Origin: a virus
DNA: 17,002 nucleotides
Strand: one strand, 5' to 3'
Virus record (IMG/VR): IMGVR_UViG_3300045988_176326
Coordinates: 1 to 17,002 of that record
In this document: piece by piece, positions 9,166 to 17,000 of the stretch
Layout of the letters: every line of letters begins with the position of its first letter
Position numbering within the stretch: the first letter of the stretch is position 1
Made by a program: the position numbers and the translations under genes
Notes under the pieces: model-generated
Databases searched by the model: none
What the model saw: only the letters and a program-made list of their open reading frames with translations
What the model was told of the DNA's origin: nothing

Positions 9166-10588
9166 CGGTAAATCCTTTCATGAGTCCGGCGTAAATCATT
9201 TGCTGAAGCTGTTCATAAGCATCGGGCGGAATGAGTGCTTTTTCCGGTTCCCTGTTGGCCGCCGCCGTCACCGGAACGGGGTCCTGCGTGTCCTCGATCG
9301 ACATGCCGATCTTTTCTTCAATCTCGGTCTTCTCGGGGCGGACGCCTCCGTCGGCAAGCGCGGCGATTTCCTCGGCTTTCTGCAGCGGGGTCTGGACGGT
9401 GTCAAAAGTGATGTGGAGGCGGGCCAGCGGTTCGCCGTCTCCCAGGACAAGCGGGCTGATGGCGGCGTTAAAAGCTTCGGCGACCTTGGAACAGACCGCG
9501 GAGACGACCGAATTCCAGCTATCCGTGTGCGCTCCCCCGGCCAGCGTGCCGGATCCTGATTCATTCAGGACGGTCAGAGTGCCGGCCATTACAAACCGCA
9601 CCTGGTCCTTGTCGGACATGTTGATTCGGGATAGGAAATAGTTTTCGTTGATGTTGGAGGCTTTCAACGGTTCGGCGGTGCAGCCGGGAGGAAGCACAAT
9701 GGAGGCTCCCGATTTGAGTTCCTCACAGGCCCGTTCCAGCGCGTCCATGACGGCGGCGCTCGCGTCCTTGGGCGCCGTGATGATGACCGGGGCGCTCCCG
9801 TAGCGGTCCATATGGTTGTCCCACGTAACTTTGGCGTGATTCCGCTCAAAAGAGGCGCGGGTTGCCGGAAAAAGAATGGGGTTCCGGTGCTCCATGACCA
9901 CGAGCGTTTCTTCCTCTACGCTCTCGCCCGTGTCGACCCCGATGTAGCACTGGGGATTAAACTGCCATTCGTTCAGCTCTCCGGGCCGCACCCAGTATCG
10001 CTGCGGGATGAATTCAAAGCGGCGGCCCCAGGAATCTTCGATGTATTGGAGGTGGGCGTACCCGTAAAACATAGCGGAGGCCAACTGCCCAAAGGCCTGT
10101 TGAAGTCCGGTGACGGAGTGATAGAATTCTTCCAGCGCGTTCTGCTGACGCTGGGCTTCCGGGCTGTCGTCCGCGGCGTCAATCTTCCATCCCTGCATGG
10201 AGACGCTTTCAATGAGCCGGGAATAGAGCATGCCCATCAAGCCGTCCGAGTAGATGACCTCGTCCCAAATGAGCATTTGGCGGGCAAAGGCTCCACGCCG
10301 CGCTTCGTTCCGGGCGTCAATCAGGGTTTGCAGGTCGGCGCCCTGTAACGGGTCCCAATATTCGTACCATTGAGGCTGGTTAGGCTTCCGGCTCTGTTCC
10401 GTCAACGCTCGCCGGGCCAGGTCCGTTTCAAGCTCCTTGATTCTGGTCTCCTGTTGGGCTACCAGCTTCGGGGCGTTGAGGATATTTTTGACGGCGTTAA
10501 ACCTGAGGCTAAAGAAAAGGTGGTTGCAGGGGAAGGAGTTGGACCTTCGATTCGGGGACAGGAACCCCGCGTGATACCGTTTCACCAC
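9140..10588 (-). CDS. Portal protein (possibly Mu gp29 / DUF935-type)
   Basis: 482-aa ORF between TerL and the prohead protease, with the size and position typical of portals. The start is GTG 10588 (or GTG 10585). The first 30 or so residues look non-globular, so the true start may be further in. Confidence 0.8.
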   Translation of the reverse strand: MVKRYHAGFLSPNRRSNSFPCNHLFFSLRFNAVKNILNAPKLVAQQETRIKELETDLARRALTEQSRKPNQPQWYEYWDPLQGADLQTLIDARNEARRGAFARQMLIWDEVIYSDGLMGMLYSRLIESVSMQGWKIDAADDSPEAQRQQNALEEFYHSVTGLQQAFGQLASAMFYGYAHLQYIEDSWGRRFEFIPQRYWVRPGELNEWQFNPQCYIGVDTGESVEEETLVVMEHRNPILFPATRASFERNHAKVTWDNHMDRYGSAPVIITAPKDASAAVMDALERACEELKSGASIVLPPGCTAEPLKASNINENYFLSRINMSDKDQVRFVMAGTLTVLNESGSGTLAGGAHTDSWNSVVSAVCSKVAEAFNAAISPLVLGDGEPLARLHITFDTVQTPLQKAEEIAALADGGVRPEKTEIEEKIGMSIEDTQDPVPVTAAANREPEKALIPPDAYEQLQQMIYAGLMKGFTDDQHETNQ

Positions 10589-10601
10589 CCTGCGATTGCT
10601 T

Positions 10602-12569: not shown

Positions 12570-12640
12570 GCGCGTTGTTTGTTCTTGATTCGGCACGGGG
12601 GCCGGATGGCGGATCCTGGAGGCTCCATCCGTCCCGGAAT

Positions 12641-12677
12641 AAAAAAGGGGCGGCTTCGAAAAAAACCGCCCCTTTTT
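12641..12677. terminator. Bidirectional intrinsic terminator
   Basis: AAAAAA-GGGGCGG-(12-nt loop)-CCGCCCC-TTTTT. The 7-bp all-GC stem (12647..12653 / 12666..12672) is flanked by an A-run and a T-run, so it reads as hairpin plus U-tract on both strands. Confidence 0.65.
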
Positions 12678-12790
12678 AAGGGAAATGGGCGTTGCCGCCC
12701 GGATGATCTTGCGATCGTTTTAATCCACAGCCCCGAAGGGCTGAACGTTCAGAAAGAACGCCTCCTCCTATCATTTTTTGATGGAGGACG
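12641..12790 (-). ncRNA. Candidate structured RNA / leader: three hairpins ending at the intrinsic terminator
   Basis: On minus-strand RNA: CCUCC-AUC/GAU-A-GGAGG hairpin (12764..12787), CAGCCC-UUCG-GGGCUG (12728..12743, cUUCGg tetraloop), GGGCG-GCAA-CGCCC (12687..12700, GNRA tetraloop), then the terminator. I found no convincing promoter for it, so the call is tentative. Confidence 0.25.
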
Positions 12791-12825
12791 ACAACGAAAA
12801 AAATCTTCTTTTTTCATTTTTTCTC

Positions 12826-12854
12826 TTGCTATACTAAACATTGTTTAGTATATT
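12826..12854 (+). promoter_or_regulatory. Promoter-like element with embedded perfect palindromic operator for the plus-strand cassette
   Basis: TTGCTA (12826..12831), 17-nt spacer, TATATT (12849..12854). The palindrome ATACTAAACA-T-TGTTTAGTAT (12831..12851; 10-bp arms, 1-nt centre) fills the spacer and touches both hexamers. Confidence 0.5.
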
Positions 12855-12924
12855 GACCTTGTTGACGGGAGGTAAGGGACCGAACGAAGACACAATCCAA
12901 AACCAAATCAGAAAGAACAAGACA

Positions 12925-13206
12925 ATGAACGACAACAAAATCATCACCACGGAAGACGGCGAAGAAATCAATCTGAGCGCGCTTGAACGCGAATTCGGTA
13001 GCTATGATTTTGAAGGACACACCTACTATGCTGCTCGCCAAATGGAATTAACCAATCGTCTTTTTGCCGGATGCTACAACGACGCGGAAGACGAAAACGG
13101 AAACCCCGTGGAAATCTTCATGACTTTCACGCAGGTGAAAGGTGAAGAGATAGACCCGGAAAACCTTAACTGGTTCCAGGACTCCGACCGCGTTGAAGCC
13201 CTCTAA
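12925..13206 (+). CDS. Small highly acidic protein (93 aa), unknown function; anti-defence / DNA-mimic candidate
   Basis: ATG 12925 inside track ORF 12841..13206 (which starts at a TTG within the operator). Counted 8 Asp + 14 Glu versus 2 Lys + 4 Arg (net about -16). Lower GC than the flanks: 25/60 and 27/60 G+C in the lines starting at 12901 and 12961. No strong SD. Confidence 0.65.
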   Translation: MNDNKIITTEDGEEINLSALEREFGSYDFEGHTYYAARQMELTNRLFAGCYNDAEDENGNPVEIFMTFTQVKGEEIDPENLNWFQDSDRVEAL

Positions 13207-14957: not shown

Positions 14958-15428
14958 TCAGTTGGGGGTTGTAGATTTCATAAAGACCAGGAAGACGGTC
15001 TTCCCGCGGCGGTGTCCGAACAAAGGTTCATGGCTGGCCAGCTTCAACACTTCTGCCGTGCTGACCTGATCCTCACACCATTTGAACACCAGAACGCCGC
15101 CCGGTTCCAAAACCCGGAAACACTCCCGGAATCCGGCCTTCAAATCATCCCTCCATGTCTTCCGATCCAGTTTTCCGTATTTCTTGGCCAGCCAGGACGA
15201 TTCCCCGGCGTGAATCAGGTGCGGAGGGTCGAACACGACAAGGCGAAACGCCCCGTCACTGAAAGGCATGGCCCGGAAGTCTCCGACGACATCCGGCTTG
15301 ATTTCCAGAGTGCGCCCGTCGCAAAGCGTGTGTGTTTCCTCCCGGCGGTCCATGAACACCACGTCAGGATGGCGGCGGTTAAACCAGAACATGCGGGAGC
15401 CGCAGCAGGCGTCAAGAATGGCTTTCAT
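14958..15428 (-). CDS. Small SAM-dependent methyltransferase with DPPH motif (probable orphan DNA amino-methyltransferase)
   Basis: 156 aa. Motif I-like ILDACCGS at aa 4-11 and motif IV-like DPPH at aa 67-70. ATGA overlap with the upstream gene. No adjacent endonuclease gene. Confidence 0.75.
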   Translation of the reverse strand: MKAILDACCGSRMFWFNRRHPDVVFMDRREETHTLCDGRTLEIKPDVVGDFRAMPFSDGAFRLVVFDPPHLIHAGESSWLAKKYGKLDRKTWRDDLKAGFRECFRVLEPGGVLVFKWCEDQVSTAEVLKLASHEPLFGHRRGKTVFLVFMKSTTPN

Positions 15429-15817
15429 TCCCCCTCCTTTCCGTCCGCCGCCATATCCACGCCAAACGCCGCGACGTATTTCTTGGCCTCTTGCGGGTCT
15501 TGCAAATAGCCCAGCAGGAAACGCAAGGCATCTTCCACCGTGGCTTTTCGCATTTGGAGATTGTTGTAAAGCTGCTGAACGGCAGCGCCCTTGGTGTTGC
15601 CGTAGGCAATAAACCCATAGTCATCATACAGGTTGCACAATTCCTGGAGCATATCGACATTCCCGATAAAAACGGAATATTGCGGCCTGCACCAAGATCG
15701 ATACGTTCCGATACGGTGCTTGTTGGCCTTGGCCCAGGCATCCACTTCCGGGGGCAGTCCCGCGGCATAGGGTTTCCGTGCATGATCACGGGGTGGCAGG
15801 TCAAAGAGGTATTTCAT
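15425..15817 (-). CDS. Hypothetical protein (130 aa)
   Basis: The internal ATG 15817..15815 of track ORF 15425..15901 forms an ATGA overlap with the upstream stop and is preceded by GGAAGGGGA. No motif recognised. Confidence 0.6.
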   Translation of the reverse strand: MKYLFDLPPRDHARKPYAAGLPPEVDAWAKANKHRIGTYRSWCRPQYSVFIGNVDMLQELCNLYDDYGFIAYGNTKGAAVQQLYNNLQMRKATVEDALRFLLGYLQDPQEAKKYVAAFGVDMAADGKEGE

Positions 15818-16149
15818 GATTCCCCTTCCTTTCTCGGTTCCCAGCGGTCCATGATTTCTGCGATATTGGCATGAGAGCATTCGCAACATGGAACATCCCA
15901 TTCAGAATAGTCTGAATATTTACAATTCCCACAGTACCTCTCTTTAACCTGCCACACCCGGCACGCGGCCCGCTTCTGCCATGCGTCGCGGATGAGTGCA
16001 TTTAATCCGCACATGTTGCGCTGCATATGCCAAAAGGAAAGCCCCATATCGGGCACATCAACAAGCAACTCTTTTAATCTGTGCGCTTTGAGCCAAGCGC
16101 GAGCGCGCCCGTATTCGTAAAAAGCTTTCTGTTCAGACGTCAGTTTCAT
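15814..16149 (-). CDS. Hypothetical Cys-rich protein (111 aa), probable zinc-binding C-terminus
   Basis: C73-x2-C76-x11-C88-C89-x-C91 (CGNCKYSDYSEWDVPCCEC). Its ATG 16149..16147 overlaps the TGA of the 33-aa micro-ORF. Confidence 0.65.
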   Translation of the reverse strand: MKLTSEQKAFYEYGRARAWLKAHRLKELLVDVPDMGLSFWHMQRNMCGLNALIRDAWQKRAACRVWQVKERYCGNCKYSDYSEWDVPCCECSHANIAEIMDRWEPRKEGES

Positions 16150-16247
16150 TTTTTTATTTTGTATATAATATATTGAATGATAAGAATAACTAATAATATA
16201 ACTAAAATTGAAAATATTAAAATATCGAATAAATCAATAATTATCAT
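16146..16247 (-). CDS. 33-aa single-pass membrane micro-protein, not in the ORF track
   Basis: Hand translation: ATG 16247..16245 ... TGA 16148..16146 = MIIIDLFDILIFSILVILLVILIIQYIIYKIKK. It makes ATGA overlaps with both neighbours. Only 12 G/C in 102 nt. Confidence 0.6.
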   Translation of the reverse strand: MIIIDLFDILIFSILVILLVILIIQYIIYKIKK

Positions 16248-16618
16248 TGCTGGACTCCTTTCTGCTCAATCTCCCAGGGCCATTGATCCACCTCATCACA
16301 GTAAATGATGGAAGCATTTCCTGCGTAGTCGCGAACGGTTATTTTGCATAAATCAAGGTCCTTAGAGACAATCGTAACGGGATAAATACTGCTACTATAT
16401 ACGAGCTTGTCCCCCGGCCAGACCCTCATGATGGGAGGAAACAAAGAAACAAGCCTATCCATATCTTCAATGCACGCTTTCTTGGTTTTCCAAAAATGGG
16501 AACTCTGGAAGAAGCAGTTGTAGCAACCAGCAACCCAATCGGTTGTTATTCCTCGGACATCATATCCTCGTATGGCTTTCAAAGGTGTGCCGCAAAGAGG
16601 GCATTTAGGCGTTTTCAT
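16244..16618 (-). CDS. Zn-ribbon protein (124 aa), unknown function
   Basis: The internal ATG 16618..16616 of track ORF 16244..16837 is preceded by AGGAGGGACG inside the rusA 3' end (14-nt overlap). MKTPKCPLCGTPLKAIRGYDVRGITTDWVAGCYNCFF gives C6-x2-C9...C32-x2-C35. Lower GC (27/60 in the line starting at 16321). Confidence 0.7.
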   Translation of the reverse strand: MKTPKCPLCGTPLKAIRGYDVRGITTDWVAGCYNCFFQSSHFWKTKKACIEDMDRLVSLFPPIMRVWPGDKLVYSSSIYPVTIVSKDLDLCKITVRDYAGNASIIYCDEVDQWPWEIEQKGVQQ

Positions 16619-17000
16619 CGTCCCTCCTTTCAAACACGATTTCCACCTTGCCGGCGCGTCCCAGGTCGTGAATCCGCTCAATCCCGGCGCAATCCAGCGT
16701 CCGGTCGTCAATCCCCAGGGCCTTGCAAGCTCCATCCAGATACGCCTTGCAGCGCGCCAGGCAATTATCCGCGTCCGGCTTCGGCCCCTTGAAAAACCAG
16801 ACCACCCGGTAATGCGTCGGTTGCATCCTCCGTCCATTCAGGGCTTCATAAGTCCTGCCCCAGGCTATATTCCGGGCGCGGCTCTTGGCAGCCGTCTTTT
16901 TGTACCCGGCCACAATGGCCCCCCTCTGCGTGAGAGGGGCCTTGGCATTCGGAGACAGGCAGCGCGGCGTGTGGGGCAAAGTAATGGTCAGCGTGGTCAT
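16605..17000 (-). CDS. rusA: RusA-family Holliday junction resolvase
   Basis: 131 aa, a typical RusA size. KPDADNCLARCKAYLDGACKALGIDDR matches the catalytic D-x-D-N ... K-x-x-x-D region of the RusA endodeoxyribonuclease family. ATG at 17000..16998. Confidence 0.85.
   Translation of the reverse strand: MTTLTITLPHTPRCLSPNAKAPLTQRGAIVAGYKKTAAKSRARNIAWGRTYEALNGRRMQPTHYRVVWFFKGPKPDADNCLARCKAYLDGACKALGIDDRTLDCAGIERIHDLGRAGKVEIVFERRDDENA

What the first reader, a model, noticed from the sequence alone, without database searches (positions are those of the whole stretch)
16146..16247. Hidden 33-aa transmembrane micro-protein encoded in a 12% GC island, exactly slotted between two genes by ATGA overlaps
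The stretch looks like an AT-rich spacer (12 G/C in 102 nt, within a phage where typical lines are 55-67% GC). It is in fact an intact ORF encoding MIIIDLFDILIFSILVILLVILIIQYIIYKIKK. Its ATG overlaps the TGA of the Zn-ribbon gene, and its TGA overlaps the ATG of the next gene. In such AT-rich DNA, stop codons are frequent, so 33 open codons bounded precisely by both neighbours is unlikely to be chance. The product is a single hydrophobic helix with an acidic N-terminus (D5, D8) and a basic C-terminal KIKK. That is the design of type I toxins, holin-like or antiholin peptides, and small membrane-protein regulators. The ORF is below the length cut-off of the supplied track and of most gene callers. 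The same DNA could also act at the DNA level, as a curved AT tract or as a nucleation site for H-NS-like silencers.
Basis: partly seen in the sequence, partly recalled or inferred. Interest (0 to 1): 0.65.

Follow-up and report, generated by a model that had tools for sequence, protein, structure and literature searches.

The report
Conserved phage membrane micro-protein gene
The AT-rich 102-base stretch is a real, conserved gene for a 33-residue membrane-spanning peptide in the early operon of an Akkermansia phage; the family is already in databases as unnamed "hypothetical proteins", and its job is still unknown.

Summary
A 33-codon ORF lies on the minus strand (16247..16146). It has 12 G/C in 102 nt and 4-nt ATGA overlaps with both neighbours.

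It is a genuine gene. I found 24 DNA alleles (22 peptides) in 57 loci, and all are 99, 102 or 105 nt long. In a set retrieved by a DNA motif alone, 27 of 27 evaluable loci keep the frame. dN/dS is below 1, and pN/pS is 0.16 for the C-terminal QYIIFKIK motif. Every context has a Shine-Dalgarno (SD) tract upstream. AlphaFold predicts one helix (pLDDT 96), with an acidic N-tail and a basic C-tail.

It is not hidden. Public gene calls already contain this exact protein and its relatives.

It sits in the early recombination/replication operon, not in a lysis cassette, and has no antisense partner. Type I toxin and holin membership therefore fail. The DNA-level ideas (curved tract, iterons) find no support.

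The downstream gene lacks its own SD at every junction that follows this ORF, which suggests translational coupling.

About half of the GC drop comes from amino-acid composition. The rest comes from extreme AT-biased codon choice and is unexplained.

A second micro-membrane gene ("type B", 50 aa) often follows it in tandem.

Function is unknown. This is a new member of a known kind, of moderate interest.

The parts
16146..16247 (-). Type-A micro-gene: 33 codons plus TGA. It encodes MIIIDLFDILIFSILVILLVILIIQYIIYKIKK, a predicted single-pass N-out/C-in membrane peptide.
   Evidence: Sequence and translation. Family of about 48 clusters at 90% identity. 19 representatives at 50% clustering. 24 DNA alleles, all in frame. 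dN/dS below 1. Single helix, pLDDT 95.6. KD19 hydropathy 3.37, the highest in the window.
16255..16260 (-). Shine-Dalgarno AAGGAG, 7 nt upstream of the micro-gene ATG. It is encoded in the tail of the upstream gene.
   Evidence: An SD-like purine tract is present upstream in all 24 allele contexts.
16244..16247 (-). ATGA overlap: stop of the upstream CxxC gene and start of the micro-gene.
16146..16149 (-). ATGA overlap: stop of the micro-gene and start of the p111 gene. No SD precedes this ATG, so it is the inferred site of termination-reinitiation coupling.
   Evidence: 25 of 27 relatives have ATGA and 2 of 27 have TAATG. 0 of 8 distinct A-to-p111 junctions have an SD, against AGGAGG in 17 of 31 junctions after other genes.
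16244..16618 (-). Upstream gene: 124 aa, CPLCG...CYNC (putative zinc ribbon), with the tail ..QWPWEIEQKGVQQ. No known family.
15814..16149 (-). Downstream gene p111: 111 aa. It has the motifs MKLTSEQKAFYEYG, KRAACRVW, CxNC..CxxC and the tail WEPRKEGES. It is an Akkermansia-phage-restricted family of unknown function and is translationally coupled to the micro-gene.
   Evidence: The AF2 model is unusable, pLDDT 54.
16112..16284 (-). Shared mosaic block of about 173 nt: tail of the upstream gene, SD, micro-gene and head of p111. It is identical or nearly identical in loci whose sequence beyond it is an unrelated allele.
   Evidence: 0 differences in the 102-nt ORF in 8 loci, against 46-65 differences per 120 nt in diverged flanks. 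RusA is 89-98% and MTase 91-95% identical in the same loci.

Best explanation
This is a bona fide protein-coding micro-gene. I call its family 'type A'. It lies in the early recombination/replication operon of a temperate Akkermansia-type tailed phage.

Shown:
- The frame, the length (32-34 codons), the upstream SD and the stop/start overlap with the next gene are conserved across 24 DNA alleles in many mosaic contexts.
- Substitutions are biased toward synonymous change, most strongly in the C-terminal IQYII(F/Y)KIK motif.
- The N-terminal MII(I/V)DLFDI motif is also nearly invariant, while the hydrophobic core drifts among I, L, V, F, G and S.
- The peptide is predicted to be one continuous helix.

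Inferred:
- The peptide inserts in the cytoplasmic membrane as a single span. By the positive-inside rule, the short acidic N-tail (net -2) faces outward and the KIKK tail (+3) faces the cytoplasm. This is the same design as YidC-inserted peptides such as the Pf3 coat protein.
- It acts early in infection through its conserved membrane-interface motifs on a host or phage membrane component. Possible roles are host take-over or exclusion.
- Ribosomes that terminate at its UGA re-initiate at the overlapping AUG of p111, which has no SD of its own. p111 synthesis is therefore tied to translation of this rare-codon-rich ORF.

The 12% GC has two sources. One is the Ile/Leu/Phe/Lys/Tyr composition, which would give about 33%. 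The other is extreme AT-biased synonymous codon use. The molecular target and the phenotype are unknown. The confidence given (0.8) is for 'translated single-pass membrane micro-protein gene'; confidence in any specific physiological role is at most 0.2.
For: Anatomy:
- The ORF, the SD at 7 nt and both ATGA overlaps are present.
- The element is a phage, and this region is its early module. The gene order is RusA, CxxC gene, micro-gene, p111, p130, DNA MTase, replication initiator, DnaC-like loader, then terminase, portal, capsid and tail fibre.
- The closest phage record is Akkermansia phage DTMo-2021a.

Conservation:
- The family has about 48 clusters at 90% identity, nearly all 34 aa long, and diverges to about 48-65% identity.
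- A full HMMER scan finds 19 representatives at 50% clustering.
- Retrieval by a 20-nt 5' DNA motif, independent of gene calls, gave 27 evaluable loci. All have an intact ORF of 99-105 nt; 25 have ATGA and 2 have TAATG at the 3' junction.
- 24 DNA alleles and 22 peptides occur in 57 loci, and every length is a multiple of 3, which includes a 3-nt indel.
- No other frame is open in all alleles.

Selection:
- Nei-Gojobori dN/dS is 0.13-0.74 for all informative pairs.
- pN/pS is 0.16 for codons 25-34, 0.47 for the N-terminus and 0.60 for the core. Synonymous change between distant alleles is near saturation.

Structure:
- AF2 gives a single helix over residues 2-32 with pLDDT 95.6.
- KD19 hydropathy is up to 3.37. 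Tail charges are -2 and +3.

Coupling:
- No SD precedes p111 after type A at 0 of 8 distinct junctions. After other genes, AGGAGG is present at 17 of 31 junctions.
- The mRNA over the ORF is less structured than shuffled controls, z = +2.6.

Codon use:
- 11 G/C in 99 nt is observed, against 32.2 +/- 2.8 expected from this phage's codon usage.
- TTA encodes 5 of 6 Leu codons, against 2% of Leu codons in the phage's core genes. ATA encodes 5 of 13 Ile codons, against 6%.
Against: - There is no direct evidence of transcription, translation, membrane location or phenotype. The peptide strings are absent from the papers and small-protein supplements I could search.
- The dN/dS values rest on about 20 synonymous sites and on non-independent pairs.
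- The motif-based sample is conditional on a conserved 5' end.
- The conserved ends of the ORF coincide with mosaic recombination boundaries and with the next gene's initiation region. Part of their conservation could therefore be at the nucleotide level.
- One contig carries a frameshifted copy (L099), and a few assemblies show frame fusions at the poly-A junction.
- No family in Pfam, PHROGs, NCBIfam, PADLOC or the PDB informs function.
- Conservation shows no one-sided helical periodicity that would point to a helix-helix interface.
Confidence: 0.8

Rival explanations
1. The ORF is mainly a translational coupling or leader device. It is translated only to deliver ribosomes to the SD-less p111 start, possibly throttled by rare TTA and ATA codons. 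The peptide itself has no function.
For: p111 has no SD at 0 of 8 distinct junctions after type A, but usually has AGGAGG after other genes. The mRNA is unstructured. The 3' 35 nt are highly conserved. Rare codons dominate the ORF.
Against: - The amino-acid motif QYII(F/Y)K(I/V)K is kept through synonymous changes, with pN/pS 0.16.
- The transmembrane design, the charge asymmetry and the 32-34-aa length are kept in all alleles.
- Most p111 homologues lack the micro-gene. About 65 of 80 loci have neither micro-gene type.
- Type A also precedes genes other than p111: type B in 8 of 27 loci and other genes in 3 of 27.
- Coupling is therefore more likely a consequence of insertion than the reason the ORF exists.
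Confidence: 0.07
2. The selected feature is the AT-rich DNA itself, and the ORF is incidental. Possible roles are an unwinding element, a bent tract, a promoter or a nucleation site for a silencing protein.
For: The stretch is 12% GC in a 58% GC phage and is the lowest in the window. Codon choice is near the minimum possible GC, 11 observed against a minimum of 7. The DNA is 100% identical across mosaic contexts. Two promoter-like hexamer pairs fall in or beside it on the coding strand.
Against: - Alleles range from 12 to 33% GC while the peptide is kept.
- A/T tracts are spaced 5-8 bp and are absent in GC-richer alleles.
- There are no iterons or meaningful repeats.
- Promoter-like hits are not above the shuffle expectation, 3 found against 2.1 +/- 1.6.
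- The frame is intact in 27 of 27 loci, indels are multiples of 3 and dN/dS is below 1.
- AT-shifted codon use is also seen in the neighbouring accessory genes.
Confidence: 0.03
3. It is a lethal membrane peptide, either a type-I-toxin-like or holin/antiholin-like effector. It would depolarise or permeabilise the membrane to time lysis or to abort superinfection.
For: It is about 33 aa long, with a very hydrophobic single helix and a charged C-terminus. It is rich in rare codons, which could limit the dose. It often occurs in tandem with a second small membrane peptide, type B, reminiscent of effector/modulator pairs.
Against: - It is embedded in the early operon by 4-nt overlaps.
- No promoter or terminator signal on either strand stands above chance, and there is no Rfam RNA.
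- It is not adjacent to any endolysin, spanin or lysis cassette, and no other plausible transmembrane small gene lies on the coding strand of the window.
- There are no matches in Pfam, PHROGs, NCBIfam or PADLOC.
Confidence: 0.1
4. It is a chance open frame in AT-rich spacer DNA.
For: An open frame of this length arises by chance in 3-4% of trials. Long open stretches also occur in two other frames of the window's copy.
Against: The frame is kept in 24 independent-looking alleles. The per-allele chance of an open frame is about 4%. An SD is present everywhere, dN/dS is below 1 and indels are in frame.
Confidence: 0.01

Closest known systems
Phage-encoded small single-pass membrane proteins made early in infection, such as T4 Imm/Sp (superinfection exclusion) and Bacillus phage SPO1 gp56 (cell-division block). 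This comparison comes from my own knowledge, not from a tool.
   Same: It is a small hydrophobic protein encoded in an early, non-structural, non-lysis module of a tailed phage. It is an accessory gene, present in some relatives and absent in others.
   Different: It is much shorter (33 aa against about 80-100 aa). It has no sequence similarity to these proteins, and no phenotype or target is known. It also lies inside a tightly coupled polycistronic operon.
YidC-inserted N-out/C-in mini-proteins, for example the 44-aa Pf3 coat protein (from my own knowledge).
   Same: It has the same design: a short acidic N-tail, one hydrophobic span of about 20 residues and a basic C-tail, with no signal peptide. 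It probably inserts by the same route and in the same orientation.
   Different: It is not a virion protein, shows no homology, and comes from a tailed phage rather than an inovirus. The resemblance concerns how it would insert, not what it does.
Bacterial small membrane-protein regulators such as AcrZ, MgrB, MgtS and KdpF (from my own knowledge; general background in the review PMC10730256 listed).
   Same: It is under 50 aa with a single transmembrane helix. Conservation is concentrated at the membrane interfaces, which is compatible with binding a larger membrane protein.
   Different: No partner is known, and there is no one-sided helical conservation. It is phage-borne and restricted to Akkermansia-type phages.
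Type I toxins (Hok, Fst, TisB, Ldr).
   Same: Size, hydrophobic helix and charged C-terminus.
   Different: There is no antisense RNA and no own promoter or long 5' UTR. It is translationally coupled inside an operon.
Holins and antiholins.
   Same: Small transmembrane protein with a charged C-tail.
   Different: The genomic location is wrong: an early module with no endolysin or spanin nearby. It has a single span and no dual-start motif.
The co-resident 'type B' micro-protein family of Akkermansia prophages: 50 aa, MIFDIAQLIVF..GYYLYL.GK.KG..acidic tail.
   Same: It occupies the same slot upstream of p111 and has the same predicted topology, an AT-shifted codon use and a shared FDI motif next to the transmembrane helix. 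It is often found in tandem as A then B then p111.
   Different: Profile comparison detects no homology (probability 0.4-4%). B has an extra amphipathic helix and an acidic tail, and is 33-38% GC. A and B are separate genes, not alleles of one gene.

Membership tests
Protein-coding gene (generic criteria) | The reading frame and length are conserved among diverged relatives | tested here: met
   24 DNA alleles, all 99, 102 or 105 nt long. 27 of 27 motif-retrieved loci are intact.
Protein-coding gene (generic criteria) | Purifying selection on the amino-acid sequence (dN/dS below 1) | tested here: met
   dN/dS is 0.13-0.74. pN/pS is 0.16 for the C-terminal motif. The number of sites is small and the pairs are not independent.
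Protein-coding gene (generic criteria) | A ribosome-binding site at proper spacing | tested here: met
   AAGGAG lies 7 nt upstream in the window. An SD-like tract is present in all allele contexts.
Protein-coding gene (generic criteria) | Direct evidence of translation | not testable with these tools
   No Ribo-seq or proteomics data were available. The peptide strings are absent from the searched supplements.
Type-A micro-protein family (defined here) | 32-34 aa, with N-terminal MII(I/V)DLFDI, a hydrophobic core, C-terminal IQYII(F/Y)K(I/V)K and a stop that overlaps the next gene's ATG | tested here: met
   The window peptide matches all of these features.
Type I toxin-antitoxin | Small hydrophobic peptide under about 60 aa | tested here: met
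   33 aa, KD19 3.37, single helix.
Type I toxin-antitoxin | A cis- or trans-encoded antisense RNA antitoxin with its own promoter and terminator | tested here: not met
   There are no opposite-strand promoter or terminator hits at the locus, and total hits are not above shuffles. There is no Rfam match. The consensus scans are crude, so this is absence of evidence rather than proof.
Type I toxin-antitoxin | An independent transcription unit | tested here: not met
   It has 4-nt overlaps with both neighbours and is one of four consecutive ATGA junctions in an operon.
Type I toxin-antitoxin | Growth arrest on over-expression | not testable with these tools
   This needs an experiment.
Holin / antiholin | At least one transmembrane domain and a charged C-terminal tail | tested here: met
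Holin / antiholin | Encoded in a lysis cassette next to an endolysin or spanin | tested here: not met
   The neighbours are RusA, a CxxC protein, p111, p130, a DNA MTase and replication genes. No lysis genes were recognised in the window.
Small membrane-protein regulators (AcrZ/MgrB type) | Under 50 aa with a single transmembrane helix | tested here: met
Small membrane-protein regulators (AcrZ/MgrB type) | Specific binding to a larger membrane protein | not testable with these tools
   Conservation gives no helical-face signal, P = 0.47-0.58. This is neither for nor against.
Type B micro-protein family | Detectable sequence homology | tested here: not met
   hhalign probability is 0.4% and 4.2%. 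The full HMMER scan with the A profile finds no B members. The apparently B-like L104 variant is an A allele with a 4-codon deletion.

The most novel reading that the evidence does not exclude
Types A and B would together form a previously unrecognised two-peptide early membrane module of Akkermansia phages. The arrangement is A, then B, then the zinc-finger protein p111, all stop/start coupled. The extreme rare-codon (TTA/ATA) content of A would act as a translational gate. That gate would set the dose of a potentially toxic membrane peptide and, through obligatory re-initiation, the dose of the SD-less downstream genes. Early gene expression would thereby be linked to host tRNA supply or growth state. 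A variant applies to the window allele only: a -1 slip on A AAA AAA just before the stop would fuse the transmembrane helix to p111 and make a membrane-anchored form.
Probability: 0.12. Interest if true: 0.6.

Novelty: new member of a known kind. Interest (0 to 1): 0.35.

Why it matters
Akkermansia muciniphila is a prominent gut commensal whose phages are barely characterised. This work defines a compact family of 32-34-aa membrane peptides, and a second 50-aa family that often accompanies it. Both are widespread in gut metagenomes: the window's exact peptide occurs in 311 blocks of the public collection, and two 34-aa relatives occur in 341 and 131 blocks. Both families are clearly under protein-level selection yet are completely unannotated.

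The locus gives a clean, testable case of a phage micro-protein. It has an unusual feature, near-minimal GC from synonymous codon choice, and an evident coupling to a downstream gene that has lost its own ribosome-binding site.

It is not a new kind of biology. Phages carry very many small proteins of unknown function (over 2 million small genes according to PMC11323111). No function can be assigned here.

Tried and rejected
- **Family libraries.** Pfam, PHROGs, NCBIfam and PADLOC scans of the micro-protein, type B and their neighbours gave nothing informative.
- **PDB sequence search.** There were no hits for type A. Type B gave weak DARPin matches over a short helical or low-complexity stretch in which almost none of the matched stretches passes the E-value limit on its own. 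I rejected these as spurious.
- **A-B homology.** hhalign was run twice and a full HMMER scan was made. None supports homology. The B-like N-terminus of P0091-95 and L104 is a 4-codon deletion of an A allele.
- **p111 structure.** The AlphaFold model has pLDDT 54, too poor for a fold search, so none was run.
- **Phage tRNA.** I checked whether the phage tRNA decodes the rare AT-rich codons. It is tRNA-Arg(CCT), which is unrelated.
- **Helical periodicity.** Conservation shows no significant helical periodicity.
- **DNA and RNA elements.** There are no iterons or repeats and no structured RNA in the AT island.
- **A-tract phasing.** The tracts are not phased and not conserved.
- **Host of the ~40% GC phages carrying type A.** A cluster look-up gave no organism names.
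- **Literature.** Literal-sequence searches of papers and of the Sberro and MetaRibo-Seq supplements gave no occurrences. Fremin et al. 2022 is not held in the library.
- **Tool limits.** The search for homologous proteins refuses queries under 40 aa. I got round this by aligning the peptides under a 66-aa read-through ORF.
Full report
**1. Observation**

The ORF is real and lies on the minus strand, 16247..16146. It has 33 codons plus TGA and encodes MIIIDLFDILIFSILVILLVILIIQYIIYKIKK. It contains 12 G/C in 102 nt. It is the lowest-GC 100-nt stretch of a window whose mean GC is 58% with an SD of 8%.

Its ATG overlaps the TGA of the upstream CxxC...CxxC gene, giving ATGA at 16244-16247. Its TGA overlaps the ATG of the downstream 111-aa gene, which I call p111, giving ATGA at 16146-16149. 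A Shine-Dalgarno (SD) sequence, AAGGAG, lies 7 nt upstream at 16260..16255.

Taken alone, the in-window statistics are modest. An open frame of this length and composition arises by chance in 3.3-4.2% of trials per frame. ATGA junctions are simply the style of this operon: the CxxC gene, the micro-gene, p111, p130 and the MTase are joined by four consecutive ATGA overlaps.

**2. Context**

The window is a tailed-phage genome segment read on the minus strand. The gene order is:
- RusA-like resolvase;
- the CxxC protein;
- the micro-gene;
- p111;
- p130;
- a DNA methyltransferase;
- a replication initiator;
- a DnaC-like loader;
- small and large terminase, tRNA-Arg(CCT), portal, protease/scaffold, major head protein and tail fibre.

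The only similar phage record is Akkermansia phage DTMo-2021a. Homologues of the neighbouring genes are named only as Akkermansia 'hypothetical proteins'. The micro-gene therefore sits in the early recombination/replication module. It is not in a lysis cassette, and no other credible transmembrane small gene lies on the coding strand of the window.

**3. Comparative evidence that it is a gene**

*Type B at the same slot.* In DTMo-2021a the same slot holds a different 50-aa hydrophobic ORF of ordinary composition, MIFDIAQLIVF...GYYLYLIGKVKG...EENENDA. I call this 'type B'.

*Occupancy of the slot.* I examined 80 IMG/VR loci that carry a p111 homologue. The position just upstream of p111 is a mosaic cargo site with many alternative genes. 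Two small hydrophobic ORF types recur there: type B, and an AT-rich type A of 33-34 aa like the window's.

*Size of the family.* A profile search finds about 48 type-A clusters at 90% identity, almost all 34 aa long. A full HMMER scan of 1.84 billion representatives finds only this compact family, with 19 representatives.

*Unbiased intactness test.* Protein databases are biased toward intact ORFs. I therefore also retrieved loci by a 20-nt DNA motif at the 5' end, without reference to gene calls. All 27 evaluable loci carry an intact ORF of 99-105 nt. 25 end in ATGA and 2 end in TAATG with the next gene.

*All loci together.* There are 24 distinct DNA alleles encoding 22 peptides in 57 loci. 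Lengths are 99, 102 or 105 nt only, and the window allele differs from most by a 3-nt deletion. Every context has an SD-like tract upstream, and no other frame is open in all alleles.

*Selection.* Nei-Gojobori dN/dS is 0.13-0.74 for all informative pairs. By region, pN/pS is 0.16 for codons 25-34 (IQYII(F/Y)K(I/V)K), 0.47 for the N-terminal MII(I/V)DLFDI and 0.60 for the core. Synonymous change between distant alleles is near saturation.

*Caveats.* There are only about 20 synonymous sites, the pairs are not independent, and the motif-based sample requires a conserved 5' end.

*Exceptions.* One 998-nt contig has one extra A that fuses A to B (L099). A few single-contig assemblies show frame fusions at the junctions.

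**4. It is not hidden**

The exact 33-aa protein is a called gene on contigs in 311 blocks of the public collection. Two 34-aa relatives are called in 341 and 131 blocks. One of them is in NCBI nr as DAM88726.1, 'MAG TPA: hypothetical protein [Caudoviricetes sp.]'. From my own knowledge, Prodigal's minimum gene length is 90 nt. What is missing is annotation and study, not detection.

**5. Protein properties**

AlphaFold2, run with the family alignment, gives a single helix over residues 2-32 with pLDDT 95.6. Kyte-Doolittle hydropathy over 19 residues reaches 3.37, the highest in the window. The N-tail has a net charge of -2 and the C-tail +3. By the positive-inside rule, which is established knowledge, this predicts an N-out/C-in orientation. 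The design matches YidC-inserted mini-proteins such as the Pf3 coat protein. This is an analogy about insertion, not homology.

The conservation pattern is invariant interface motifs with a drifting core. That is compatible with specific contacts at the two membrane surfaces. Conservation shows no one-sided helical periodicity (P = 0.47-0.58).

**6. Mosaicism**

The 102-nt ORF is 100% identical in eight further loci. Beyond about 35-40 nt on either side, their flanks are unrelated alleles, with 46-65 differences per 120 nt. Where RusA and the MTase are homologous in the same loci, they are only 89-98% and 91-95% identical.

The shared block runs from the tail of the upstream gene (..WPWEIEQKG, which encodes the micro-gene's SD) to the head of p111 (MKLTSEQ.AFYEYG). 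Similar SD-containing junction sequences recur at other gene boundaries in the operon (repeat D1).

The simplest reading is recent recombinational spread of a small cassette through conserved junction sequences. These loci were retrieved by exact peptide identity, so only synonymous differences could have appeared, and none did.

**7. Coupling to p111**

The mRNA across the ORF is less structured than shuffled controls, with z = +2.6 and an unpaired centroid structure.

p111 homologues preceded by ordinary genes usually have a strong SD, AGGAGG, at 17 of 31 distinct junctions. Those preceded by type A have none at proper spacing, at 0 of 8 distinct junctions. The window junction reads ...CAAAATAAAAAAATGA.

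I infer that p111 initiation here depends on termination and re-initiation at the ATGA. I regard this as a consequence of where the cassette sits rather than its purpose, for three reasons:
- most p111 genes lack the micro-gene;
- type A also precedes type B (8 of 27 loci) and other genes (3 of 27);
- the peptide itself is under selection.

**8. The AT-richness**

Under the codon usage of this phage's core genes, the peptide would be encoded with 32.2 +/- 2.8 G/C in 99 nt, or 33%. The observed value is 11, which is z = -7.7. The theoretical minimum is 7.

TTA encodes 5 of 6 Leu codons, against 2% of Leu codons in the phage's core genes. ATA encodes 5 of 13 Ile codons, against 6%. GC3 is 0.12, against 0.56-0.76.

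Composition therefore explains the drop from 58% to about 33%. Synonymous choice explains the rest.

AT-shifted codon use is shared by the neighbouring accessory genes: the CxxC gene (z = -6.1), p111 (z = -4.9) and type B (z = -5 to -7.5). The shift per codon is largest in type A.

Across alleles GC ranges from 12 to 33%. Oddly, the AT-richest alleles sit in phages whose flanking DNA is about 45-55% GC, and the GC-richest alleles sit mostly in phages with flanks near 40% GC. This remains unexplained. Candidate explanations are a rare-codon throttle, unstructured mRNA that favours coupling, or a recently spread AT-rich lineage.

**9. DNA-level alternatives**

There are no iterons or meaningful repeats. 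Promoter-like and terminator-like hits are at the shuffle expectation. The only Rfam family hit is the tRNA. A/T tracts are spaced 5-8 bp rather than about 10.5 bp, and they vanish in the alleles of 27-33% GC. Side effects of so AT-rich a segment cannot be excluded, but it is not what is conserved.

**10. Relation of types A and B**

Type B is a separate family of 49 clusters, diverged to 48% identity and present in Akkermansia muciniphila genomes. It has the same predicted topology plus an amphipathic helix and an acidic tail.

A and B often occur in tandem as intact, stop/start-coupled genes in the order A, B, p111. Examples are L102, L037, L052, L077, L105, L106, L109, L113, L116, L120 and L129. 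They are therefore not alleles of one gene.

Profile comparisons show no homology beyond a shared FDI motif. The apparent intermediate is an A allele with a 4-codon deletion. A functional pairing is possible but untested.

**11. Comparison with known systems**

- **Type I toxin:** the size and hydrophobicity fit. The defining antisense RNA and independent locus are not found.
- **Holin or antiholin:** the transmembrane helix and charged tail fit. The defining lysis-cassette context is absent.
- **Small membrane-protein regulators and early phage membrane proteins** (T4 Imm/Sp, SPO1 gp56; from my own knowledge): the general design and the early, accessory position fit. There is no homology and no known partner or phenotype.
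- **Libraries:** Pfam, PHROGs, NCBIfam, PADLOC and the PDB have no match.

**12. Verdict**

The core of the interpretation, a real transmembrane micro-protein gene slotted by overlaps, is strongly supported. The claims that it is hidden, that it resembles a type I toxin or holin, and that it acts at the DNA level are not supported.

The most likely mechanism has three steps, all inferred from conserved features rather than shown:
1. An early-expressed single-pass inner-membrane peptide is made.
2. It acts through its conserved interface motifs on an unknown membrane target.
3. It secondarily couples ribosomes to the SD-less p111 gene.

Confidence that it is a translated membrane micro-protein gene is about 0.8. 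Confidence in any specific physiological role is at most 0.2.

It is a new, uncharacterised member of a known kind, phage small membrane proteins. Interest is moderate at 0.35. That score is raised mainly by the near-minimal-GC codon usage, the tandem A/B arrangement and the prevalence in the phages of an important gut commensal.

Noticed in passing
window 10521-10594 (-): A phage-borne tRNA-Arg (anticodon CCT) lies between the large terminase and portal genes. It does not decode the rare ATA or TTA codons of the micro-gene.
   Followed up: yes
window 15423-15441, 15815-15833, 16613-16631, 16821-16839; also 16248-16284: A 19-nt repeat recurs at these positions. On the coding strand it reads GAAAGGAGGGGGAATGAAA-like, and three of the four copies lie at gene junctions. 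It combines an SD embedded in the previous gene's tail with an overlapping stop/start. Unrelated genes share the tails ..WPWE(I/L)EQKG and ..WEPRKEGE. These look like conserved boundary sequences that promote exchange of mosaic modules.
   Followed up: partly
L002-L081, about 2100-2500 (slot upstream of the p111 homologue): The slot is a cargo site with many alternative occupants. They include an ASCH-like protein of about 137 aa, a 62-aa basic protein (MKAPAKRRKYGLNVWKAHLKIDAMH...), a 70-aa protein, zinc-ribbon-type proteins, a second p111 paralogue, type A, type B, or A plus B.
   Followed up: partly
L102 3001-3254; L037, L052, L077, L105, L106, L109, L113, L116, L120, L129: Type A is frequently followed directly by the 50-aa type-B micro-membrane gene, in the order A, B, p111 with all junctions overlapping. 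This may be a functional two-peptide pair. No A-B homology is detectable.
   Followed up: partly
window 16146-16160 (-); P0108, P0072, P0074, P0098, P0026/L099: The window allele ends A AAA AAA TGA, and p111 is in the -1 frame. A -1 slip or a 1-nt deletion would therefore make a transmembrane-anchored p111. Single-contig assemblies show such fusions: micro-gene plus p111-like, upstream gene plus micro-gene, and A frameshifted into B. The 7-A run is not conserved in other alleles, so these are probably errors or rare variants.
   Followed up: partly
window 12640-12800 and 12841-13206 (+): A second low-GC patch (12742-12798) lies in the intergenic region between the early and late modules. Terminator-like GC hairpins with T-runs lie around 12640-12690. 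A 121-aa ORF on the opposite strand has no known family.
   Followed up: partly
window 15814-16149 (-) and homologues P0112-P0231: The p111 family is restricted to Akkermansia phages and prophages. Its conserved motifs are MKxTPEQKAF.EYG, IRDAWQKRAACRAW, a CxNC...CxxC zinc-finger-like motif and a WEPRKEGE tail. It has no Pfam family, and the AlphaFold model is poor (pLDDT 54).
   Followed up: partly
L100-L103, L111, L114, L119, L128, L130: Type-A alleles of 23-33% GC occur in phage contigs of about 40 kb whose flanks are only about 40% GC. Their host is unknown. The family may extend beyond the A. muciniphila phages with flanks of about 45-55% GC.
   Followed up: partly
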